64,000 nt of DNA from Arcobacteraceae bacterium (GTDB taxonomy: Bacteria > Campylobacterota > Campylobacteria > Campylobacterales > Arcobacteraceae). The translations under genes and the position numbers were made by a program. The DNA lies in NCBI GenBank assembly GCA_963662945.1, contig OY759974.1, forward strand, positions 2,433,316-2,497,315. Direction: 5' to 3'. Position 1 is the first letter of the stretch. Each line of letters begins with the position of its first letter. Under the pieces are notes generated by a model, which saw only the letters and a program-made list of their open reading frames with translations, was not told where the DNA came from and searched no databases. Positions 1,060 to 12,009 of this stretch are shown here, piece by piece.

Positions 1060-1089
1060 CTTTATATTATTTTTTAACTTATTAAAATA

Positions 1090-1623
1090 TCACTTTGGTC
1101 TAAATCCTATTAAATTATCATTTGTCTTTTGAGTATCTTGTAAGATTTGATGTAAGAGTTCAAAAGCTTCATCTATTCTATGAGTATTGTAGTTTTGATG
1201 TTGTTGGTCAATTTTAATCGTTTTTTCTATCTCTTCTATTCTCTGTGCTATATCTTTATAGTTTAAAGCAAATTCTCTCATTTTTGTAAATGTTCGCATG
1301 ATAGTAAGAGTCACTTCTGTAGCAACTTGACTTTTTAACACCGTTGCCAACATATACACTCCCTGTTCTGTAAAAACTTTAGGTAAATATTTTCTATCTT
1401 TTAAGCTTTCTTTAAAGGTCGCATTTTGCGACCTTAAGATATCTACTTCTTCCTTTGTCATCTCAAAAAATAAATCGCAAGGAAATCTTTCAGGATTTCT
1501 TTTAACAGCTTCATTTATCCTTTTTGTTTCTACATTGTATAAATTTGCTAAATCACTATCTAACATAATATTGAGATTACGAACTTTATATATCTTTGTT
1601 TCTATATTATTTACAATTTCCAT
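1090..1623 (-). CDS. ORF6N-domain DNA-binding protein
   Basis: MLDSDLANLYNVETKRINEAVKRNPERFP and PKVFTEQGVYMLATVLKS are typical ORF6N motifs; ends IGF. Confidence 0.9.
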   Translation of the reverse strand: MEIVNNIETKIYKVRNLNIMLDSDLANLYNVETKRINEAVKRNPERFPCDLFFEMTKEEVDILRSQNATFKESLKDRKYLPKVFTEQGVYMLATVLKSQVATEVTLTIMRTFTKMREFALNYKDIAQRIEEIEKTIKIDQQHQNYNTHRIDEAFELLHQILQDTQKTNDNLIGFRPK

Positions 1624-1710
1624 ATCTGATACTCCTATTTTTTCTAAAGTATCTTATCATCTTTTTTAATTTGAGATTGAAAATATGGCATATTGTAATA
1701 TTTATGTTTT

Positions 1711-1944
1711 TTAGCAGAGTGTTTTTTGTCTGTTTATTTTTTCTTCTATAGTTTTAGTTGTATTATTAATATTGTCGTATAATGATTTTCTTTGGTCATG
1801 TGTAATATCTTCTGATAGTAAATATTCTAATATGTTTAATGTTGTTTCAACAAGTATATAATCCTCTTGAAGGTCTTTTTTATATTTTTCAATTCTTTGT
1901 ATTGATGATTTTATTTTATCTTTCAAAATCATTCTTTTTCTCAA
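1711..1944 (-). CDS. Small hypothetical helical protein (start may be ATG at 1932)
   Basis: ORF only; overlaps the 3' end of the upstream ORF as in an operon. Confidence 0.4.
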   Translation of the reverse strand: MRKRMILKDKIKSSIQRIEKYKKDLQEDYILVETTLNILEYLLSEDITHDQRKSLYDNINNTTKTIEEKINRQKTLC

Positions 1945-2143
1945 TTTCTTTTAAGTAGTATTCAAGTACAAAAATTACATTATCATTTTTTTCTAACCAT
2001 TTATGTATCTCTTTATTTGAAGCATTTGTATTTAGTAAAATATTTATCTTTTTTAATAATATTTTAGTGAATAGATATTTTTCTTGGATTGTTTCATAAT
2101 TTTTATCTATTCTTTGTTTTAGGTTTATTATTGTTTGTTGCAA
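1916..2143 (-). CDS. Small hypothetical protein
   Basis: TTG start preceded by AAAGG RBS; divergent from the XRE gene. Confidence 0.45.
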   Translation of the reverse strand: MQQTIINLKQRIDKNYETIQEKYLFTKILLKKINILLNTNASNKEIHKWLEKNDNVIFVLEYYLKEIEKKNDFER

Positions 2144-2170
2144 ATTTTAGCCTTTGAAAAATATTTCAAA

Positions 2171-2244
2171 TTTATCCTATAGGATAAAGATTTTTTAATT
2201 ATATAACTATAAAGTTTAATTTTAAATTAACTCTATAGGATAAA
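2171..2244. promoter_or_regulatory. Putative operator pair in a divergent promoter
   Basis: Perfect 18-bp palindrome TTTATCCTATAGGATAAA (2171-2188); CTATAGGATAAA repeated at 2233-2244 over the XRE gene RBS. Confidence 0.65.
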
Positions 2245-2248
2245 TAAG

Positions 2249-2500
2249 ATGGAAACCGATTTTAGTAACTCAACAAAAGAAGAAATAAAAAAGTTTTATG
2301 AAAATATTTCAAAAAAAGTAAAGTTTTTTCGAGAAAGTAAAAATATAACTCAATTGGATTTAGCTTTGGATATAGGGATAAAGTCTGTAGCCTTTTATTC
2401 AAATTGTGAAAATAATAAATATGATAAACATTTTAATTTAGAACACTTGTATAAAATTGCCAAGTCTTTGAAGGTAGATATTAATGAGTTTTTTAATTAA
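2249..2500 (+). CDS. XRE/Cro-C1 family helix-turn-helix regulator
   Basis: VKFFRESKNITQLDLALDIG...YSNCEN...NLEHLYKIAKSLKVDINEFF HTH_3 pattern. Confidence 0.88.
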   Translation: METDFSNSTKEEIKKFYENISKKVKFFRESKNITQLDLALDIGIKSVAFYSNCENNKYDKHFNLEHLYKIAKSLKVDINEFFN

Positions 2501-2520
2501 ATGTTATGATTATTTAGTAG

Positions 2521-2655
2521 GTATAACGTCTGAACTGAAGGACGATGACCCCATCAATATGTTTGCTGGCTTCTTTTTTAACTAATACATAAAAGCTAAT
2601 TTAGGCTTAAATATTTGCAGGGGTCACGCGTTCTTTTTCCTGTATTTTGTTATAT
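2521..2655 (-). repeat. attC-like site of cassette 4 (135 bp)
   Basis: + strand GTATAAC (2521-2527)...GTTATAT (2649-2655); internal arms TGACCCC/GGGGTCA. Confidence 0.75.
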
Positions 2656-2677
2656 CTTATATAGTTTATGCTAATTA

Positions 2678-3034
2678 TTACAGTCTATCTGCATAACAAG
2701 TCCCATTGTCTTTTTTACCCCATTTATTCTCAATATAAATATATTCTCTATCCTCAGGTTCATAGTGATGAAATTTATAAGTGTAACTATCATTTTTATA
2801 TATAATGATTTCAGTTTTGAAATCATCATATTCTGATAATTTCTTTGAAAATGAATCAACTTTCCAAACGGTATATTTATTGTTAACAAGAATTTTATTA
2901 CTATCTAAATATCTACCAAATACTTTTATAGTGATATTGTCACCACTTTTCATTTTACATTCTAAATTATATATAAATGCCTTTGCATTTGTAAAAATTC
3001 CAAAGATTAATAATATGCTTAATAAGAACTTCAT
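2678..3034 (-). CDS. Cassette 4 ORF: secreted hypothetical protein
   Basis: Sec-type signal peptide MKFLLSILLIFGIFTNAKA; AAAAGGA RBS; two Cys near the termini. Confidence 0.75.
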   Translation of the reverse strand: MKFLLSILLIFGIFTNAKAFIYNLECKMKSGDNITIKVFGRYLDSNKILVNNKYTVWKVDSFSKKLSEYDDFKTEIIIYKNDSYTYKFHHYEPEDREYIYIENKWGKKDNGTCYADRL

Positions 3035-3074
3035 TTGAATATATCCTTTTATAAAGTAAATAGCTATTTTGTAG

Positions 3075-3207
3075 ATATAACGACCGAGTTGAAAAACAAG
3101 GTGTTATTTTTAATAAGATGTTCAAATCTTCATCTAAGTAATTTTACAAGATAAAGCTTAAATAATTGTAGTGTAACCTTGTTTTTCTTTCCAACGATTT
3201 GTTAGAT
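3075..3207 (-). repeat. attC-like site of cassette 3 (133 bp)
   Basis: ATATAAC (3075-3081)...GTTAGAT (3201-3207); perfect 12-bp arms GAAAAACAAGGT/ACCTTGTTTTTC. Confidence 0.85.
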
Positions 3208-3208
3208 T

Positions 3209-3691
3209 TTATAATATCTCAATATATGAATTATCTTTTTTTATTTCTTGTCTTAAATTTAGAATAAATTCAAGTTTTAATTTTCTGACATATTGTTTTA
3301 AATATTTTTTTGGCAAAAACTTAGTCCACATAGGTAAATCAAATTTATCATTTAAATAATATTTATCAAAATATATTTTAACAATTTTTAAATTTTTTCC
3401 TTTTGTGTTTGTTGGAATAAAACATCTCCATGGTTTTTGATTATATAATATATTATTTTTAAAAGGTGTTGATTCATTCATACTAATTTGTTGAACTTTT
3501 CCAGACCATTTAAATACAAGAACTACACCTTGATTTTGAAATTCCTGTCCGTAGTTATACCCTTGCTTTATAGAACAAAAACAATTTAAACAAGAATCAC
3601 CATTATAAATATTTCTTGAAAAAGGTATAAATTGTTTGCTTTTAATAATATTTAATGCAGAAGTTAAATTTGTAATATGATAAATATACAA
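3209..3691 (-). CDS. Cassette 3 ORF: hypothetical protein with ADP-ribosyltransferase-like N-terminal YHxT motif
   Basis: Start re-called to TTG at 3691 (AAAAGGA RBS 6 nt upstream; track start 3775 lies inside attC); MYIYHITNLTSALNIIKSKQF. Confidence 0.7.
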   Translation of the reverse strand: MYIYHITNLTSALNIIKSKQFIPFSRNIYNGDSCLNCFCSIKQGYNYGQEFQNQGVVLVFKWSGKVQQISMNESTPFKNNILYNQKPWRCFIPTNTKGKNLKIVKIYFDKYYLNDKFDLPMWTKFLPKKYLKQYVRKLKLEFILNLRQEIKKDNSYIEIL

Positions 3692-3732
3692 TGATAGTCC
3701 TTTTTTATTACATAGTAAAATTTGATTTATAA

Positions 3733-3802
3733 ATCTAACGTTTGACTTGAGAAATAGTTGTGCCCGCAGGGTCAACTATTTCTCTCCAAGGTTTTGTTAG
3801 AC
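3733..3802 (-). repeat. attC-like site of cassette 2 (70 bp)
   Basis: ATCTAAC (3733-3739)...GTTAGAC (3796-3802); arms GAGAAATAGTTG/CAACTATTTCTC; centre TGCCCGCAGGGT. Confidence 0.9.
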
Positions 3803-3813
3803 TTTTAATACAA

Positions 3814-4608
3814 CTATCCAATGTATAAATCATTCACCATTAATGGTACTTTGTGTAATTTATAATCAAGTTTTTTCATTAATTTTTCTTGCTCGTTTTG
3901 AATAAAAGGTTCTTGTCTTCTTTGAGTATCTTGTTTATATGTCCTAATTTCTTGTAGCATCTCTCGATTATGCTCTTCTTGTCCTCTTATCATTTCTCTT
4001 AATTGACGCTGATTATGTCTAATTTCATCTTGACCATTTAATAAATCAATGTGAGTTGGTTGCTCATTATGTATATGTATCTCTTGATTTATATTTATAA
4101 TTTGTCTATCTTGAGCAAAGATAGAATCTAATGATGTATTAAGTCCATATATGATAACTCCTTCTGCCAAAATAGCTAACACTTTTTTTCCATTCAAGTG
4201 ATACTTGTGTGGCGAATTTAATTCAATTTTTGTAAAGGACAATGCTTGTTCATCAACATAAATTGGTTCATACTTTCCATGACTATTCCCACACATAATA
4301 ATTGGTCTTTGGAGGCTGTGAAATTTTTTCCAAAATGATTTAGCATCTCTCTCTTTACTTTCAAGAAATACAAAATCATTATAGTTTTCAATAGTGTATT
4401 TTTCAGCTTCTTTTGGAACTGTTGAATATAAATCAAAAGAACGAGTAGCAATGATAAAATCTGAATCATGTGCACCATCTGCATATAGTTTTTCCATGCT
4501 TTCAAGCATAGATAATTTCATATAATATTCACCAAGGAAAGTAACTGTATGTCCCATCATCCAGTGAGGTTGAATTGTTGGTGATTGGAAAACTGTATTA
4601 ATATTCAT
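3814..4608 (-). CDS. Cassette 2 ORF: hypothetical protein with C-terminal coiled coil
   Basis: 264 aa; AAAAGGA RBS just inside the core site; Q/E/R-rich helical tail. Confidence 0.75.
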   Translation of the reverse strand: MNINTVFQSPTIQPHWMMGHTVTFLGEYYMKLSMLESMEKLYADGAHDSDFIIATRSFDLYSTVPKEAEKYTIENYNDFVFLESKERDAKSFWKKFHSLQRPIIMCGNSHGKYEPIYVDEQALSFTKIELNSPHKYHLNGKKVLAILAEGVIIYGLNTSLDSIFAQDRQIININQEIHIHNEQPTHIDLLNGQDEIRHNQRQLREMIRGQEEHNREMLQEIRTYKQDTQRRQEPFIQNEQEKLMKKLDYKLHKVPLMVNDLYIG

Positions 4609-4626
4609 TTATTATGTCCTTTTGTA

Positions 4627-4695
4627 GTCTAACGGTTGAAGTGAGCTAATAAATTGCCCGCAGGGTAATTTATTAGCTCCTCTGATTTGTTAGAC
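4627..4695 (-). repeat. attC-like site of cassette 1 (69 bp)
   Basis: GTCTAAC (4627-4633)...GTTAGAC (4689-4695); arms GAGCTAATAAATT/AATTTATTAGCTC; centre TGCCCGCAGGGT. Confidence 0.9.
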
Positions 4696-4733
4696 ATTAG
4701 TAAAATTTTTCTATATCTATAATTCATTAAGTT

Positions 4734-5657
4734 TTATAGAATTTTTTCTCTATTGATTTTTTCTTGATTTAAAGTAAAACCTTTGTTATTAAACACAGTT
4801 ATTTGTAAATAATCATTAGATTGGTCATCAATATAGTCTCTAAAATTAATAAAATTATTTTCTTCAATAATTTTAAAATCATTACTTATAATTTTTGAAC
4901 TATTATTAGACTCTAAAACTATAGATAAACTTTTAATTAAAAAATATGTAAGTGATTCAGTTATTTTAATTACTGTATTAACCATAGGGTATTCATATAC
5001 ATCAGAATCTATGAGTAGTATATTATCTTCTGTATCTTTAAAGCATGAAAAACAACATTGAATGTATGGTTCAACAGATGATAAGTGGGTAAGTATGTTT
5101 CTAAAGCTTTTTTTATTTCCTTTTTCAAGTAAATTAAATATATGTGATTTTAATTCATCTATTTCTTTTTGGAGTAATTTTATATTATCCTTTGAATGAT
5201 TTTTAACATATGATTCAAATAATTCAAAGTCTGATTGCTTTGGCTTTTTTAATTTTCTAGCAGGTTTTCCAAAATTTTTATAAACAAAGTTGAAAAAGAT
5301 ATCTAAAGTGGATTTAGAATGCATAATAAAAGATCCAAAATCAGATGCAATTGTTACTTCATTAAATAATAATAATTCATTGTTCTCTTTATCTTTTATT
5401 GTTGTTGTGTTATGAGATTGTTTTATTAAATTAATAGATTTTTGTCTGATTTGATAAGAATAATATAGGATAGTAAACATTTTTTCTTTAAATGAGTTAG
5501 TGTCTTGTAAGCTAGAACTATCTAATTCTTTATGTACTTCTTTGTACATATTTAATGCATTTTCATTAGCAAAACCTTCAAAATATGGATATAGTAAGCT
5601 TCTATTATAACTCGTATAGTTTTCACCATTTTTATTAAAATATAAATTCAAGTTCAT
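4734..5657 (-). CDS. Cassette 1 ORF: HEPN-like (RxxxxH) putative RNase
   Basis: Helical DFGSFIMHSKSTLDIFF segment followed by FRNILTH, resembling Cthe_2314-like HEPN domains. Confidence 0.65.
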   Translation of the reverse strand: MNLNLYFNKNGENYTSYNRSLLYPYFEGFANENALNMYKEVHKELDSSSLQDTNSFKEKMFTILYYSYQIRQKSINLIKQSHNTTTIKDKENNELLLFNEVTIASDFGSFIMHSKSTLDIFFNFVYKNFGKPARKLKKPKQSDFELFESYVKNHSKDNIKLLQKEIDELKSHIFNLLEKGNKKSFRNILTHLSSVEPYIQCCFSCFKDTEDNILLIDSDVYEYPMVNTVIKITESLTYFLIKSLSIVLESNNSSKIISNDFKIIEENNFINFRDYIDDQSNDYLQITVFNNKGFTLNQEKINREKIL

Positions 5658-5662
5658 CCTTT

Positions 5663-5691
5663 GTCTAACTCTTTATTGAAGATACATTATA
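5663..5691 (-). promoter_or_regulatory. attI-like core site (GTTAGAC) with candidate cassette promoter -10 box
   Basis: Minus strand reads TATAAT(5691-5686)-16 nt-GTTAGAC(5669-5663)-AAAGG-ATG; no attC-type stem upstream. Confidence 0.6.
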
Positions 5692-6095
5692 TATAAAACA
5701 CCCTGAAAATCAATAAATAACATACATAAAAAATGTTGTTTTATTTATTCGTTATAAAGCCTTTAAATAAAAGTCTTCTTACACATTTTACTGTAAAAAA
5801 CATTGCAATTTAAGATATTTTTTAAATAAATTTTAAGTTTTTGCTACAATTTTTATGTATGTTTAATGTCGATATTTCGATGATAATAGTACATAATGTA
5901 TGTATATTAAGACAATATCGTAATAAACCTGCATTATGTTAAATATATTGGGAGAGATATTATAAGTAAATAAAATCGAATGAACTGTAACCAAACTTTA
6001 CAAAAATATTCTCTTATAATCAATCTAAATCCTTATTAGCAACACTTTATCTCTCTATGCTATAATATCTCATAATTAACTATTAGGAGAGCAGA

Positions 6096-6608
6096 ATGAT
6101 GGGATTTACAAAATTTAAAGGTACAGATGTAACATTAGAGGGAACACAACTAGAAGTTGGGGATATGGCTCCTGTTGTTACTATAGTTGGGGCTGATTTA
6201 GAAGATATTGAAGTTGGTGGTTCAAATGACCAAATACAACTTATCATCTCAGTACCATCTCTTGATACAGCAACTTGTGCAGCTGAAACTCGAAGATTCA
6301 ATGAAGAGGTTGGGGCACTTGATATTTGTACAACAACTGTTATCTCTATGGATTTACCATTTGCAAGTGCAAAGTTCTGTACAACAGAAGGTATAGATAA
6401 CCTTGAAGTTGGAAGTGATTATGTTGATAAAGAGTTTGGAAAAGCTTATGGTGTATTGATGACTGACAATAAACTAAAAGGTTTACTTGCTAGAACAGTT
6501 TTTGTAGTAGATAGAAATGGTATCATAGTATATAAACAAATAGTTCCAGAAGTTACAGCTGAACCAGATTATGAAGAGGTTTTAGAAGCGATTAAAGGGG
6601 CAAGATAA
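6096..6608 (+). CDS. tpx: Thiol peroxidase (atypical 2-Cys peroxiredoxin)
   Basis: SVPSLDTATCAAETRRFN, ISMDLPFA..FC, GLLAR; extended -10 TGCTATAAT at 6058-6066. Confidence 0.95.
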   Translation: MMGFTKFKGTDVTLEGTQLEVGDMAPVVTIVGADLEDIEVGGSNDQIQLIISVPSLDTATCAAETRRFNEEVGALDICTTTVISMDLPFASAKFCTTEGIDNLEVGSDYVDKEFGKAYGVLMTDNKLKGLLARTVFVVDRNGIIVYKQIVPEVTAEPDYEEVLEAIKGAR

Positions 6609-6609
6609 G

Positions 6610-6999
6610 GTGTCTTATCAGTCTTGGCACCAAGAACACGCCCAAAAGCATAAAAAGCTTCTAGAGAAGCTAAAAGATTTAAGTGACAATGAGATTATAG
6701 AGTATTTTAGTTTTGAAAATATGGTTATCAAAGAACCAGATTTTTGCCCTTTATACAAAGAGAATAGAAAATGTCACAATATGGAAAATCTGAATTGCTA
6801 TTTTTGTGCTTGTCCAAACTTTAGAGTAGAGGAAAAACAAAGCACTTGTTCCATAAAAAGTAAAGATGGTGGAAGTATAAAGTCTCCTGATGGTTTTATC
6901 CATCAGGATTGCTCAAAGTGTACAGTTCCCCATAAAGTAGAATATGTCAAAAAACATTTTGATAGAGATTGGTTAAAAGTTATGAAGAATAACTTTTAA
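6610..6999 (+). CDS. Cysteine-rich small-domain (zinc-finger-like) protein
   Basis: FCPLY...CH...NCYFCACP...DCSKCTVPH. Confidence 0.8.
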   Translation: MSYQSWHQEHAQKHKKLLEKLKDLSDNEIIEYFSFENMVIKEPDFCPLYKENRKCHNMENLNCYFCACPNFRVEEKQSTCSIKSKDGGSIKSPDGFIHQDCSKCTVPHKVEYVKKHFDRDWLKVMKNNF

Positions 7000-10189: not shown

Positions 10190-12009
10190 GATATCACCAC
10201 CTTTACCCCATCTTGTGTATTATGTTGAAATTTTCCTTTAAGTTGTTTTGTTGCAAGTGTTTCAACAAGAATTAATCCTAAAGTATTAGCATTGTTTTGT
10301 TGTTCATATCCTATCCCATCATCACTAATTGAGAGTAGATAGTTTTCATTTTCTTTTTTAAGGCTAATATTTATGGTTCCATTTCCATCTACAAAAGCGT
10401 ATTTAAAAGCATTGGTAATAAGTTCATTGACAATAAGTCCACAATATACAGCTTGTTCTGCTTTTATATTAACATTTATGTCAAATTCTATTTTTATATC
10501 TTGTGTTTCAAAACTCTCTTTTAGTTCATCTACAAGTTTTTCAAAATAATCATAAGCATTGACATACGAGGGATTTTCTTGGTTATAAAGAAGTTCATGA
10601 AGTGAACTCATAGCACTAATTCGATTTTGAATAGTTTGAAACATACTTTTAATTTTCTTTTCTTCTATCTCTTGACTTTGAAGTCTTATAAGAGAGATGA
10701 TAGTTTGCATATTATTTTTTACTCTGTGATTGAGTTCTTTTAAAAGAAGATTTTTTTCATCGTAGGCTTTTTTTAAAGCTTTTGTTTTTTCTTTTACTTG
10801 ATATTCTAATCTTTGTTTTTCAAATTGTTGATTAAGAATTAGTTCCATATTTGCTTCATTTTTCTTTTGTTCTAGTTGATTTATCTTGTCTGCTAAAGCA
10901 ACAGAAAATACTAATGCTTCAAGGATTAAAGTGCTTTCTACAAAATATTTAAAATCATCAAAAATATAAAAAATACCTAGACTGGAAAAATACATACAAA
11001 AAGCAGCCATCGCAAATAAAAACCAACCAAACATTACAAAATAAGCTTGTCTATTTTTTTTGAGAGTTGCATAGATTGTGATACTTATTAAAAAAAGTAG
11101 TAATATCACTGAAAAGAAACTTCTATATTGGTTAAATCGATCTGTTATAAGAAATACAAAAGATAATATGATAAAAATTAATAAGTAAATGTTTAAAGTA
11201 TTATTCCATTTTGGATATTGTGAAAGTTTTAAAAATGACTTTACTAGAAGTGCCAACATAAATACAGGGAAAGCCACTAAAATACTTGCATATTTGACTA
11301 ATAATATAGTGATATCTTGATTAAAAATATAAATTGAACCAAAGCCAGTATAGACAAGTTGATGAACAATAATACCTATCATATAAAGAATATAGAATAG
11401 ATAGTTTTTATCATTTGTAATAAAGTATATAAAGAGATTGTAAATTGTGAGTATTAACATAGAAGCAAAAAACATAGCTAGTATCATATTGTGTTTTTCT
11501 ACTTGCTTTTCAAAACTATTTATATCCCAAAGATTTAGTTTCACTATCAGGGTTGTTATATAAGAAGATGCTTTTATATAGTATGTTTTTGTTTGATTTG
11601 GATTTAAAAAGATTTCAAAACTGGGGTTGAGACTTTCTCTTATATAATTTATTTGAAAAAGTCCATCTTCTAAATGGTTTGTATCATAATATAATTCTAC
11701 ATTTGTAGTTAAAGGATTCCCATATTCTAATACTTTTTTTATAGGTTGATTTGACTGATTTGTGAGTGTAAATTTTACCCATAGAGTCAAATATGGAGAA
11801 TATCCAAAACTTAATGTTTCGCTATTGTTTTTTTGAAAACTTTTTGTTTTGATTTCTTCAAAAGAAAGCTTTTGTGTATTATCTATAAATATCTCACTCT
11901 GTGTCAAAATCTCTTGGTTTGAAGTAGTTTGAGTGATAGAAATTGTTTCATTTGAAAACATAAAACTAAATAAAGATAATAGTAAAAAAAGTGATTGCAT
12001 AAAATTCAT
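10180..12009 (-). CDS. 7TM-DISM sensor histidine kinase (HisKA_2 type)
   Basis: DISMED2-like periplasmic domain (LSFGYS..TLWVKF), seven hydrophobic helices, ELNHRVKNNMQ H-box, NELITNAFKYAF, DDGIG. Confidence 0.93.
   Translation of the reverse strand: MNFMQSLFLLLSLFSFMFSNETISITQTTSNQEILTQSEIFIDNTQKLSFEEIKTKSFQKNNSETLSFGYSPYLTLWVKFTLTNQSNQPIKKVLEYGNPLTTNVELYYDTNHLEDGLFQINYIRESLNPSFEIFLNPNQTKTYYIKASSYITTLIVKLNLWDINSFEKQVEKHNMILAMFFASMLILTIYNLFIYFITNDKNYLFYILYMIGIIVHQLVYTGFGSIYIFNQDITILLVKYASILVAFPVFMLALLVKSFLKLSQYPKWNNTLNIYLLIFIILSFVFLITDRFNQYRSFFSVILLLFLISITIYATLKKNRQAYFVMFGWFLFAMAAFCMYFSSLGIFYIFDDFKYFVESTLILEALVFSVALADKINQLEQKKNEANMELILNQQFEKQRLEYQVKEKTKALKKAYDEKNLLLKELNHRVKNNMQTIISLIRLQSQEIEEKKIKSMFQTIQNRISAMSSLHELLYNQENPSYVNAYDYFEKLVDELKESFETQDIKIEFDINVNIKAEQAVYCGLIVNELITNAFKYAFVDGNGTINISLKKENENYLLSISDDGIGYEQQNNANTLGLILVETLATKQLKGKFQHNTQDGVKVVISWN

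What the first reader, a model, noticed from the sequence alone, without database searches (positions are those of the whole stretch)
2521..5669. Core-site register supports cassette-by-cassette integration
Seen: on the minus strand the entry cores are GTTAGAC, GTTAGAC, GTTAGAT and GTTATAT (cassettes 1-4). The inverse cores of the same cassettes' own attC sites are GTCTAAC, GTCTAAC, ATCTAAC and ATATAAC, a 7/7 complement in all four. Within the linear array, three of the four attC sites have mismatched ends (GTCTAAC/GTTAGAT, ATCTAAC/GTTATAT, ATATAAC/GTTATAC). Established: crossover between G and TT of a circular cassette yields exactly this shifted register. Inference: these are intact, excisable units rather than terminators or REP hairpins, and the array has decayed little.
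Basis: partly seen in the sequence, partly recalled or inferred. Interest (0 to 1): 0.72.

Follow-up and report, generated by a model that had tools for sequence, protein, structure and literature searches.

The report
Integron cassette array without its integrase
This is a row of four mobile integron gene cassettes that were inserted one at a time, sitting behind an integration site whose own integrase gene has been deleted; the mechanism is textbook, seen here in a little-studied bacterial family.

Summary
On the minus strand, window 5669-2521 carries four cassettes, each ending in an attC site (69, 70, 133 and 135 nt). Each cassette's own inverse core complements its entry core 7/7. In the linear array, 3 of 4 sites mismatch by one base.

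The rule generalises. Over 29 attC sites from the genus, the own-cassette register matches 80/87 variable positions and the linear register 42/87. Permutations average 38.2±4.3, and 0 of 100,000 reach 80.

A metagenome contig carries the same 894-nt unit (body 97%, attC 91%) in another context, with both flanks at background.

There is no integrase next to the array, so it is a CALIN. The ~300 bp upstream is the genus's attI/promoter region, and it ends in a 12-nt stub of intI. One intact intI lies elsewhere in the genome, and four further orphan heads each carry at least one cassette. A sister species has the same integrase-less head at the same locus but five different cassettes.

This is known biology: a new member of a known kind. 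Excision today is inferred, not shown.

The parts
5663..5669 (-). Entry core GTTAGAC at the attI/cassette-1 junction; the crossover lies between G5669 and T5668.
   Evidence: In 29 distinct heads, conservation ends right after GTTA.
5670..5961 (-). Head: the attI plus promoter intergenic region of the genus's integron, here without an integrase gene.
   Evidence: Matches the sequence that abuts intI in G020 and G014 at 81-83% over ~308 nt. The last ~29 nt are 93% identical to the site next to this genome's own intI. It is a dispersed repeat, with 43 matches in 14 of 28 genus genomes.
5686..5713 (-). Candidate cassette promoter (Pc): TTGATT-16 nt-TATAAT, about 17 nt upstream of the crossover.
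   Evidence: Consensus match 10/12. The -10 block is conserved in at least 90% of 29 heads. Promoter-like sites are not enriched in the region (45 against 41.3 in shuffles), so function is inferred.
5962..5973 (+). 12-nt stub of the deleted intI gene: ATA AGT AAA TAA, where G020, G014 and G018 have ATG/GTG GGT AAA AAA after the same ribosome-binding site.
   Evidence: tblastn with IntI finds no further remnant in the 64-kb window or behind any orphan head.
4633..5668 (-). Cassette 1 (1036 nt): ORF 4734-5657 (307 aa) plus attC1.
   Evidence: Boundaries. No Pfam or PADLOC match. Small family with invariant R186, H191 and D217. The predicted fold is nearest HEPN toxins at Z 8.2.
4627..4695 (-). 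attC1, 69 nt, GTCTAAC...GTTAGAC.
   Evidence: Bottom strand -17.2 kcal/mol, z -7.06, 0 of 200 shuffles as stable. R box 7/7, spacer 5/4.
3739..4632 (-). Cassette 2 (894 nt): ORF 3814-4608 (264 aa) plus attC2.
   Evidence: The same 894-nt unit occurs in L153 directly behind a head. An 889-nt version occurs in L154 behind a different cassette.
3733..3802 (-). attC2, 70 nt, GTCTAAC...GTTAGAT.
   Evidence: Bottom strand -14.2 kcal/mol, z -5.05. 90% identical to the second attC of the intI-linked array.
3081..3738 (-). Cassette 3 (658 nt): ORF 3209-3691 (160 aa, TTG start) plus attC3.
   Evidence: No family match.
3075..3207 (-). attC3, 133 nt, ATCTAAC...GTTATAT.
   Evidence: The R box closes only in the circularised register (-15.8 against -13.5 kcal/mol). 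As it sits in the array, the fold is not better than shuffles (z -1.95).
2527..3080 (-). Cassette 4 (554 nt): ORF 2678-3034 (118 aa, hydrophobic N-terminus by eye) plus attC4.
   Evidence: No family match.
2521..2655 (-). attC4, 135 nt, ATATAAC...GTTATAC; the last site of the array.
   Evidence: 81% identical over 134 nt to the first attC of the intI-linked array. The R box closes only in the circularised register. Linear fold z -1.32.
1078..6094 (.). The whole insertion relative to the empty tkt|tpx site of relatives. It comprises the ORF6N gene, two small ORFs, an XRE gene, the four cassettes, the head and 121 nt of unassigned spacer.
   Evidence: In G027 the tkt end (query 1077) and tpx (query 6095) are 8 nt apart. 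G010, G013, G011, G024 and G006 are similar.

Best explanation
Window 2521-5669 (minus strand) is an integron cassette array of four complete cassettes that has lost its own integrase. It is a CALIN, headed by the integron's attI/promoter region.

How each cassette got there (established integron mechanism). Each cassette entered as a circle. IntI recombined the folded bottom strand of the cassette's attC with the attI site, cutting between G and TT. The last six bases of the cassette's own R' therefore now lie at its upstream end. This is why each R'' complements the core in front of its cassette and not the core behind it.

What happened to the integrase. The intI gene that once sat behind the head was deleted, leaving a 12-nt stub.

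What probably happens now (inferred). An intact IntI is encoded elsewhere on the same contig, 1.89 Mb away along it. That is about 0.6 Mb the other way round, if the contig is a closed circle. This IntI can probably still excise and insert cassettes here in trans. A conserved promoter-like element in the head probably transcribes the array.
For: Shown:
1. Cores and register are exactly as described. The register rule holds for 80/87 variable positions over 29 sites, against 42/87 in the linear register. 0 of 100,000 permutations reach 80.
2. All four sites fold on the bottom strand with a 7-bp R box and a 5/4-nt unpaired spacer. All four have G after AAC and more unpaired bases on the R''-L'' arm. 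In the short-type alignment, 3 of 12 predicted pairs show compensatory changes.
3. attC2 and attC4 are homologues (90% and 81%) of attC sites in the array beside the genome's true intI. That intI scores 403 bits on TIGR02249 (cut-off 265) with no stops. It aligns over its full length to VchIntIA, PDB 2A3V, E 4e-83.
4. The head is the sequence that abuts intI in G020 and G014. The homology runs 12 nt into the intI reading frame and then stops.
5. A second locus shows the same event. G018 has head-intI-aspS, while this genome has head, a five-codon stub and then aspS.
6. Cassette 2 is a discrete unit. L153 holds the same 894-nt G-to-G unit with body 97% and attC 91% identical. Its flanks are 52% and 56% identical, against a background of 51±3.7%.
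7. G018 has the same integrase-less head at the same tkt|tpx locus, contiguous over query 5666-6998. It carries five cassettes there, and none matches the window's four at DNA level.
Against: - No excision or circle junction was observed. The public runs are kept as contigs, which cannot show rare forms.
- As they sit in the array, attC3 and attC4 do not fold better than shuffles (z -1.95 and -1.32).
- The classical conserved extrahelical G is not evident. The extra bases on the R''-L'' arm are pyrimidine bulges of 2-5 nt. Over the wider set, the arm carrying the extra bases was inconsistent in minimum-energy folds (9 of 19 against 10 of 19).
- Beyond the last ~30 nt, the head next to this genome's own intI differs from the orphan heads. 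Recognition of the orphan attI by the resident IntI is therefore assumed.
- Complete genomes with no intI hit (G025, G019, G021, G022) also keep heads. Arrays with intact register were mapped in loci from all four. Intactness therefore does not prove current activity.
- 7 of 29 sites match only 2 of 3 variable positions.
Confidence: 0.85

Rival explanations
1. Fossil array. The cassettes were inserted one by one while intI was still in cis. Since the deletion the array has been frozen and is kept only for its expressed cargo.
For: - The integrase at this locus is gone.
- Genomes with no intI hit keep arrays with intact register.
- The resident intI has a different head type beyond the last ~30 nt.
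- No excision products were seen (contigs only).
Against: - The deletion is shared with G018 (contiguous homology over query 5666-6998). Yet the two species share none of their 4 and 5 cassettes at DNA level.
- All four attC sites and registers are intact.
- The core ~30 nt of attI is 93-100% identical between the orphan heads and the intI-linked head.
Confidence: 0.3
2. Cassette content at this locus changes by homologous recombination, not by IntI. Incoming DNA carrying a whole array replaces the resident one, using the conserved head and the tkt/ORF6N flank.
For: - Both flanks (query 1-1711 and 5666-6998) are conserved at ~85% between G000 and G018, while everything between differs.
- Heads and attC types are shared across the genus and provide homology.
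Against: - This does not explain the per-cassette register, although it is compatible with it.
- Cassette 2 recurs as a single unit in three different contexts. That shows unit-level mobility, not whole-array mobility.
Confidence: 0.2
3. The cassettes were inserted at a secondary genomic site (attG route), not at a true attI.
For: Integrase-less clusters and single cassettes can arise this way (Loot et al. preprint 10.1101/2022.09.11.507474, passages read).
Against: - The sequence in front of cassette 1 is the genus's intI-proximal intergenic region, with a stub of intI.
- Conservation across 29 heads stops at the crossover.
Confidence: 0.03
4. The hairpins are intrinsic terminators or REP-type repeats, and the core complementarity is chance.
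For: One of the four (attC1, read on the + strand) scores as terminator-like in a simple scan.
Against: - The register statistics.
- Homology to intI-linked attC sites.
- Unit boundaries at G|TT in L153.
- The hairpin with the T-run lies on the strand opposite to the genes.
Confidence: 0.01

Closest known systems
CALIN, cluster of attC sites lacking an integron integrase (Cury et al. 2016, PMC4889954; passages read)
   Same: - At least two attC sites with no intI nearby.
- The genome encodes IntI elsewhere, as in about half of CALINs.
- Small size.
- The proposed origin by integrase loss fits.
   Different: The origin can be read directly here. The attI/promoter head is still present and ends in a stub of intI. 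The paper found recognisable intI pseudogenes near only 15 of 279 CALINs. It could not search for attI, because attI is unknown for most integrons.
Sedentary chromosomal integrons with homogeneous attC families, such as the Vibrio cholerae superintegron and its VCR sites (recalled; VchIntIA structure 2A3V matched)
   Same: - Chromosomal location.
- A few conserved attC sequence types shared across a genus.
- Cargo of unknown or defence-type function.
- A related IntI (E 4e-83).
   Different: Instead of one large array beside intI, this genome has at least six small platforms of 1-4 cassettes, and only one has intI. The attC bulges are pyrimidine-rich and lack the classical G and T extrahelical bases (criteria from Bouvier 2009, PMC2727003).
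Xanthomonas integrons and their CALINs at conserved loci (preprint 10.1101/2025.06.18.660453; passages read)
   Same: - Ancestral platform with progressive loss of integrase.
- CALINs at conserved chromosomal positions away from intI.
- The statement that CALINs can be mobilised in trans.
   Different: In the passages I read, attI sequences at the heads of those CALINs are not described. Here the heads are demonstrable, and two loci show clean deletions of intI.
SALIN / attG insertion of cassettes outside integrons (Loot et al. preprint 10.1101/2022.09.11.507474; passages read)
   Same: Cassettes found away from an integrase. A lone attC-like site at G000:254810-254941 may be of this kind.
   Different: The window's array sits behind a true attI-type head, not a generic genomic GTT site.

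Membership tests
Integron attC site / gene cassette | Imperfect inverted repeat bounded by R'' (ends in AAC) and R' (starts with GTT) | tested here: met
   4 of 4 sites.
Integron attC site / gene cassette | Shifted register: R'' complements the core upstream of its own cassette, as expected from crossover at G|TT | tested here: met
   Window 12/12 variable positions against 9/12 in the linear register. Genus 80/87 against 42/87, with 0 of 100,000 permutations reaching 80.
Integron attC site / gene cassette | Bottom strand folds into an R box, an unpaired central spacer, an L stem and a variable terminal structure | tested here: met
   In the own register, 4 of 4 window sites have the R box paired 7/7 and a 5/4-nt spacer. 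Terminal structures range from a 3-nt loop to ~80 nt. Across the set, the R box closes in the minimum-energy fold in 19 of 29 sites.
Integron attC site / gene cassette | Extrahelical bases on the R''-L'' arm, with a conserved G in L'' and a T 6-8 nt downstream (Bouvier 2009) | tested here: inconclusive
   In 4 of 4 window sites the R''-L'' arm carries more unpaired bases (2>1, 4>2, 14>0, 9>7). These are pyrimidine bulges, and no conserved G is evident. In the wider set the arm with more unpaired bases was the R''-L'' arm in 9 of 19 and the other arm in 10 of 19.
Integron attC site / gene cassette | G immediately after AAC of the R' box on the bottom strand (in most attC sites; Bouvier 2009) | tested here: met
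   4 of 4 window sites read CGTT on the top strand. The 29/29 count is partly circular, because the caller scored that position.
Integron attC site / gene cassette | Mobility as a unit bounded at G|TT | tested here: met
   Met for cassette 2 only, through L153. Cassette 1 had no relative in the metagenome scan. Cassettes 3 and 4 were not tested.
Integron attC site / gene cassette | Recognition by the IntegronFinder attC covariance model | not testable with these tools
   The model is not available here. Rfam has no matching family.
Integron attC site / gene cassette | Recombination by IntI (excision or integration) | not testable with these tools
   Needs an experiment or raw reads. Only contigs were available.
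Complete integron | intI adjacent to attI and the array | tested here: not met
   No IntI similarity in the 64-kb window (best tblastn E 9.0). Only a 12-nt stub remains.
CALIN | [quoted passage not shown] | tested here: met
   Four attC sites. The nearest intI is 1.89 Mb away along the contig.
Integron integrase (the trans candidate at G000:C1:545688-546632) | Tyrosine recombinase with the IntI-specific extra domain, full length and uninterrupted | tested here: met
   TIGR02249 403.1 bits (cut-off 265), model positions 1-313 of 315, no stops. Aligned 1-318 to VchIntIA 2A3V, including the IntI-specific stretch.
attI site (the head) | Lies between the intI start and the first cassette, and ends at the crossover GTT | tested here: met
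   Met by homology to the intI-abutting sequence in G020 and G014. Conservation in 29 heads ends after GTTA. Binding by IntI was not tested.
HEPN-domain protein (cassette 1 ORF) | R-x4-6-H dyad (recalled definition) in a helical HEPN fold | tested here: inconclusive
   R186 and H191 are invariant in 23 aligned relatives. The best structural match is a HEPN toxin, 8XDJ: Z 8.2, rmsd 2.9 Å, 125 of 130 residues. That Z can arise by chance for helical bundles. Foldseek found nothing at E ≤ 0.001. 0 of 23 members match a HEPN family in Pfam.

The most novel reading that the evidence does not exclude
This genus runs a distributed integron. A single IntI serves several orphan attI/promoter platforms scattered round the chromosome, and each platform has lost its own intI by clean deletion. 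This genome has five such platforms. The platforms go on capturing and exchanging cassettes in trans, many of them defence genes. If so, integrase-less arrays are working outposts of an integron rather than wreckage.
Probability: 0.4. Interest if true: 0.65.

Novelty: new member of a known kind. Interest (0 to 1): 0.45.

Why it matters
The finding itself is a clean textbook example of how integron cassettes are inserted. It confirms that the mechanism operates in Arcobacteraceae. My one search for integron work on this group returned 8 papers, and by their titles and abstracts all are resistome or microbiome surveys.

The context is the more useful part. The attI head can be recognised here, so the origin of integrase-less arrays can be read directly from the sequence: clean loss of intI at two loci. 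Surveys have mostly had to guess at this origin.

The pair G000/G018 is also a natural experiment. Both share the same integrase-less platform, yet their cassette sets do not overlap. This makes 'are CALINs still active in trans?' directly testable.

Sibling arrays carry SIR2, TIR and PD-T7-4 defence-type genes. The four unannotated ORFs in the window are therefore reasonable candidates for new single-gene defence or toxin functions.

Tried and rejected
- **Own structural attC scanner.** It failed its control, with 228 real hits against 359 in the reversed genome. Discarded.
- **MAFFT alignment of the long attC type.** It gave no consensus structure, so no covariance model was built.
- **Head motif as a fuzzy regex over the whole genome.** Not specific (12 hits against 9 in the decoy). 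Genome-wide head counts rest on BLAST instead.
- **Rfam.** Only a chance snoRNA match at E 0.34.
- **Public runs.**
  - All four runs laid are kept as contigs, and no listed holder is on record as RNA.
  - No circle junction was seen (5668→4633, 4632→3739 and so on). Contigs cannot show rare forms, so this says nothing.
  - The joint 4692→5666 with 761 letters between is the paralogous array at G000:1.98 Mb.
  - A 'goes back 72' joint at attC1 in X5 rests on one contig and was left uninterpreted.
  - X7 (59% of words) looks like a fragmented assembly of the same array, not a variant.
- **Cassette 2 ORF in 184 family genomes.** One 32%-identity homologue lies beside what looks like a tRNA or tmRNA end (by eye), with no attC. 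It is too distant for a boundary test. A second hit falls in what reads as a response-regulator gene (by eye) and is taken as spurious.
- **Cassette 1 ORF in metagenomes.** No relative found.
- **Protein Atlas.** Nothing usable for cassette 2. Only unnamed clusters and a faint HEPN lead for cassette 1.
- **Cassette 2 structure.** pLDDT 51.7; not used.
- **Foldseek on the cassette 1 model.** No match at E ≤ 0.001.
- **Extrahelical-base arm test on 29 sites.** Inconsistent.
- **XRE module after attC4 as a fifth cassette.** Rejected, because in G019 the same module has no attC or head beside it.
- **Literature search for orphan or multiple attI.** Useless, because 'attI' at word start matches 'attitude'. 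I therefore make no claim that attI-headed CALINs are absent from print.
- **Earlier scan notes.** Nothing to show.


Full report
**1. The observation**

- Entry core: GTTAGAC, 5669-5663.
- attC1: 4695-4627, GTCTAAC...GTTAGAC.
- attC2: 3802-3733, GTCTAAC...GTTAGAT.
- attC3: 3207-3075, ATCTAAC...GTTATAT.
- attC4: 2655-2521, ATATAAC...GTTATAC.

Cutting between G and TT gives cassettes of 1036, 894, 658 and 554 nt. Each holds one main ORF on the same strand, of 307, 264, 160 and 118 aa. Each cassette's own R'' complements its entry core 7/7. Inside the linear sites, attC2, attC3 and attC4 each have one mismatch.

The core motif alone is not informative. GTTRRRY occurs 106 times in the window against 147±11 in shuffles.

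**2. Structure of the sites**
- Folded as single-stranded DNA, the bottom (+) strands of attC1 and attC2 are far more stable than shuffles (z -7.06 and -5.05; 0 of 200 shuffles fold as well).
- As they sit in the array, attC3 and attC4 are not (z -1.95 and -1.32).
- When the last six bases are replaced by each cassette's own entry core, all four close a 7-bp R box and have a 5/4-nt unpaired spacer. All four also carry more unpaired bases on the R''-L'' arm.
- For attC3 and attC4, the R box closes only in that circular register.
- All four read CGTT on the top strand, which gives the G after AAC on the bottom strand that Bouvier et al. 2009 describe for most attC sites (PMC2727003, passages).
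- The classical extrahelical G is not evident. The bulges are pyrimidine runs.
- Over the wider set, the arm carrying the extra bases was inconsistent (9 of 19 against 10 of 19).
- In eight aligned short-type sites, 3 of 12 predicted pairs keep pairing through changes on both sides.

**3. The integrase**

There is none in the window (best tblastn E 9.0). The gene beyond the head reads by eye as a thiol peroxidase (tpx, 6096-6608, + strand).

The genome does have one true integron integrase, at G000:C1:545688-546632. It scores 403.1 bits on TIGR02249 (cut-off 265) with no stops. It aligns over its full length to the Vibrio integron integrase 2A3V at E 4e-83.

That intI has its own small array. 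Its attC sites are homologues of attC4 (81% over 134 nt) and attC2 (90%). Its first two cassettes obey the same register. For its third I read 6/7 by eye, and that attC is interrupted.

**4. The head**

The ~300 nt upstream of cassette 1 (window 5670 to about 5973) is a dispersed repeat, with 43 matches in 14 of 28 genus genomes and 1-6 per genome.
- In G020 and G014 the same sequence directly abuts the intI start. Homology to the window runs 12 nt into the coding sequence and then stops.
- The window reads ATA AGT AAA TAA where G020, G014 and G018 read ATG/GTG GGT AAA AAA after the same ribosome-binding site.
- The head is therefore the integron's attI/promoter region, and intI has been deleted from behind it.
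- Across 29 distinct heads, conservation is highest in the last ~30 nt and stops immediately after GTTA, the crossover.
- A TTGATT-16-TATAAT element lies about 17 nt before the crossover, and its -10 block is conserved in at least 90% of heads. Promoter-like matches are not enriched in this AT-rich region (45 against 41.3), so its function is inferred.

By my comparison of coordinates, 6 of the 43 head matches lie beside an intI match or fragment. The other 37 do not, though some of those sit at contig ends.

**5. Other platforms in this genome**

Besides the intI-linked head, four further orphan heads each carry at least one cassette.
- After the gene I read by eye as aspS (aspartyl-tRNA synthetase): three cassettes, the last attC truncated.
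- At 1.98 Mb: one cassette.
- At 1.88 Mb: one cassette.
- At 1.43 Mb: one cassette with a decayed attC.

At the aspS locus, G018 has head-intI-aspS. This genome has the head, the same ribosome-binding site, ATG GGA CAA AAT TTT TAA, and then the same downstream terminator. This is a second clean deletion of intI.

**6. The locus**

In several relatives the gene I read as transketolase (tkt) and tpx are adjacent; they are 8 nt apart in G027. Window 1078-6094 is therefore an insertion.

G018 shares both flanks with this genome: query 1-1711 (tkt plus an ORF6N-domain gene) and query 5666-6998 (head, stub region and tpx), each at about 85%. Between them it carries five different cassettes. By eye, these match their entry cores at 7, 6, 7, 5 and 7 of 7 positions.

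The integrase-less state is shared between the two species and the cassettes are not. The content has therefore turned over at a platform without intI. Either IntI acted in trans, or whole arrays were swapped by homologous recombination. I cannot separate these two with the data in hand.

**7. The register rule tested widely**

I built a half-site caller from 14 sites and left the variable triplets out of the score. It made 35 calls against 0 in reversed decoys over 204 kb of held loci. Over the whole genome it made 10 calls against 0.

| Measure (29 distinct sites with an upstream core) | Own register | Linear register | Permuted |
|---|---|---|---|
| Variable positions matched | 80/87 | 42/87 | 38.2±4.3 |
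| Sites perfect (3/3) | 22/29 | 2/29 | – |

- 0 of 100,000 permutations reach 80.
- Of 27 informative sites, the own register beats the linear one in 26 and ties in 1.
- Outside the window, 18 of 25 sites are perfect.
- Seven sites match only 2 of 3 positions.
- Kin genomes are not independent, so the permutation count is not a true probability.

**8.

A metagenome scan with the cassette 2 protein found two contigs.
- **L153.** The cassette sits directly behind an orphan head (no IntI by tblastn). Its G-to-G length is 894 nt, as in the window. Identity is 97% in the body and 91% in the attC. It is 52% in the 80 nt upstream and 56% in the 80 nt downstream, against 51±3.7% for unrelated 80-mers.
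- **L154.** The cassette (889 nt, body 87%) follows a different cassette. It starts at the same G|TTAGAC. It ends in an attC of another sequence type (62% identical), so on that side sequence homology stops about 50 nt before G|TT.
- In both contigs, by eye, the next cassette's R'' complements the new downstream core at the three variable positions.

Cassette 2 is therefore a unit bounded at G|TT and found in three contexts. Cassette 1 had no relative in the metagenome scan. Cassettes 3 and 4 were not tested.

**9. Reads**

The four runs laid are stored as contigs. They show breaks at module edges (1077, about 4692, 5666) and the paralogous array, but they cannot show circles.

**10. Cargo**
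- The four window ORFs match nothing in Pfam or PADLOC.
- Sibling arrays carry defence-type genes:
  - a SIR2/ThsA-like gene;
  - a CAP12/Pycsar-type TIR gene;
  - a GNAT acetyltransferase;
  - a TIR-TM gene;
  - PD-T7-4 (E 1e-85).
- This fits the report that chromosomal integron cassettes often encode anti-phage systems (preprint 10.1101/2024.07.02.601686; only the start of its abstract seen, in the listing).
- ORF1 belongs to a sparse family, with 25 representatives at E ≤ 0.001 among 1.84 billion.
  - Its only invariant residues are R186, H191 and D217.
  - A confident model (pLDDT 87.3) is nearest to HEPN toxins. The best is 8XDJ at Z 8.2, rmsd 2.9 Å, over 125 of 130 residues.
  - That Z is within the chance range for helical bundles, Foldseek found nothing significant, and no member matches a Pfam HEPN family.
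  - HEPN-like is a moderate lead only.

**11. Comparison with what is known**

This is an integron cassette array of the CALIN class (Cury et al. 2016). The shifted register is the established consequence of attC × attI recombination at G|TT.

Trans-mobilisation of CALINs is stated as accepted in the Xanthomonas preprint. IntegronFinder does not look for attI outside class 1, because such sites are poorly described (PMC9024848).

What is less usual here is that the attI head can be recognised, that intI loss can be seen as clean deletions at two loci, and that one genome holds six small platforms with a single intI. I did not find this described. My searches were limited (the last was uninformative), so I do not claim it is unpublished.

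**12. Verdict**

It is a new member of a known kind. Present-day excision and the role of the distant IntI remain inferred.

Noticed in passing
G000:C1:1-3760 (L022), 1980950-1981936 (L023), 1876333-1878345 (L024), 1431227-1431975 (L025): Four more integrase-less heads in the same genome, each followed by 1-3 cassettes. With the window's head and the intI-linked one, that makes six platforms for one intI. The cassette at 1.43 Mb has a decayed attC (no AAC, and GTC in place of GTT).
   Followed up: partly
L022 3725-3790 against L034 1489-2500: At the aspS locus, G018 has a full intI between the head and the aspS terminator. This genome has only ATG GGA CAA AAT TTT TAA there, which is a clean deletion of intI.
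   Followed up: yes
L022 2286-3425 and 1029-2144; L027 4139-4894 and 3427-3999; L023 5014-5454: Sibling arrays carry single-gene defence-type cargo: SIR2_2/ThsA-like, CAP12/Pycsar-type TIR, TIR-TM and PD-T7-4 (E 1e-85). There is also a GNAT acetyltransferase.
   Followed up: partly
window 4734-5657 (-): The cassette 1 ORF belongs to a sparse unannotated family whose only invariant residues are R186, H191 (an R-x4-H dyad) and D217. Its confident predicted fold is nearest HEPN toxins (Z 8.2). It may be a new HEPN-like nuclease.
   Followed up: partly
window 1090-1623 (-); L027 about 2200 and below; L023 4650-4940 (-): An ORF6N-domain gene (PF10543, E 1e-31) lies at the distal end of the array in this window. 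The same is true at the same locus in G018, and a truncated copy (read by eye) follows the array at 1.98 Mb. The reason for the association is unknown.
   Followed up: no
window 1731-2500: A module of an XRE-family HTH gene (2249-2500, +) and two small ORFs recurs at 82% in G019 (L155 1478-2245). No attC or head lies beside it there, so it is a separate module and not a fifth cassette.
   Followed up: yes
L009 about 11229-11485; L027 about 2385-2425: A short element with hairpin-containing inverted ends (…CACCTCTCCTGAGGTG…) interrupts the third attC of the intI-linked array. A related end follows the last attC in G018. It looks like a MITE that targets or accumulates at array ends.
   Followed up: no
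L154 1004-1068: The cassette 2 homologue in this metagenome contig carries an attC of a different sequence type (62% identical to attC2, closer to attC1). The ORF and the cassette start are conserved. attC sites therefore seem to be exchanged between cassettes.
   Followed up: partly
L153 about 3307 and 3893: Two consecutive attC sites in this contig have R'' ending in AAT instead of AAC (GTCTAAT, GTATAAT). The variable triplets still match their entry cores.
   Followed up: no
L028, L029, L030 (G025, G002, G020 at tkt|tpx): Three close relatives carry 1.1-3.4 kb of other, non-integron content between tkt and tpx. The caller found no head or attC there. The intergenic site is an insertion hotspot.
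   Followed up: no
G000:C1:254810-254941 (L026 2811-2942, -): A lone attC-like site (GTATAAC...GTTAACT, 132 nt) has no head or neighbouring attC. It is a possible single cassette inserted at a secondary site.
   Followed up: no
L155 2300-2530 (-): In G019, a G+C-rich stretch that looks structured lies just upstream of the XRE module. It was not examined.
   Followed up: no
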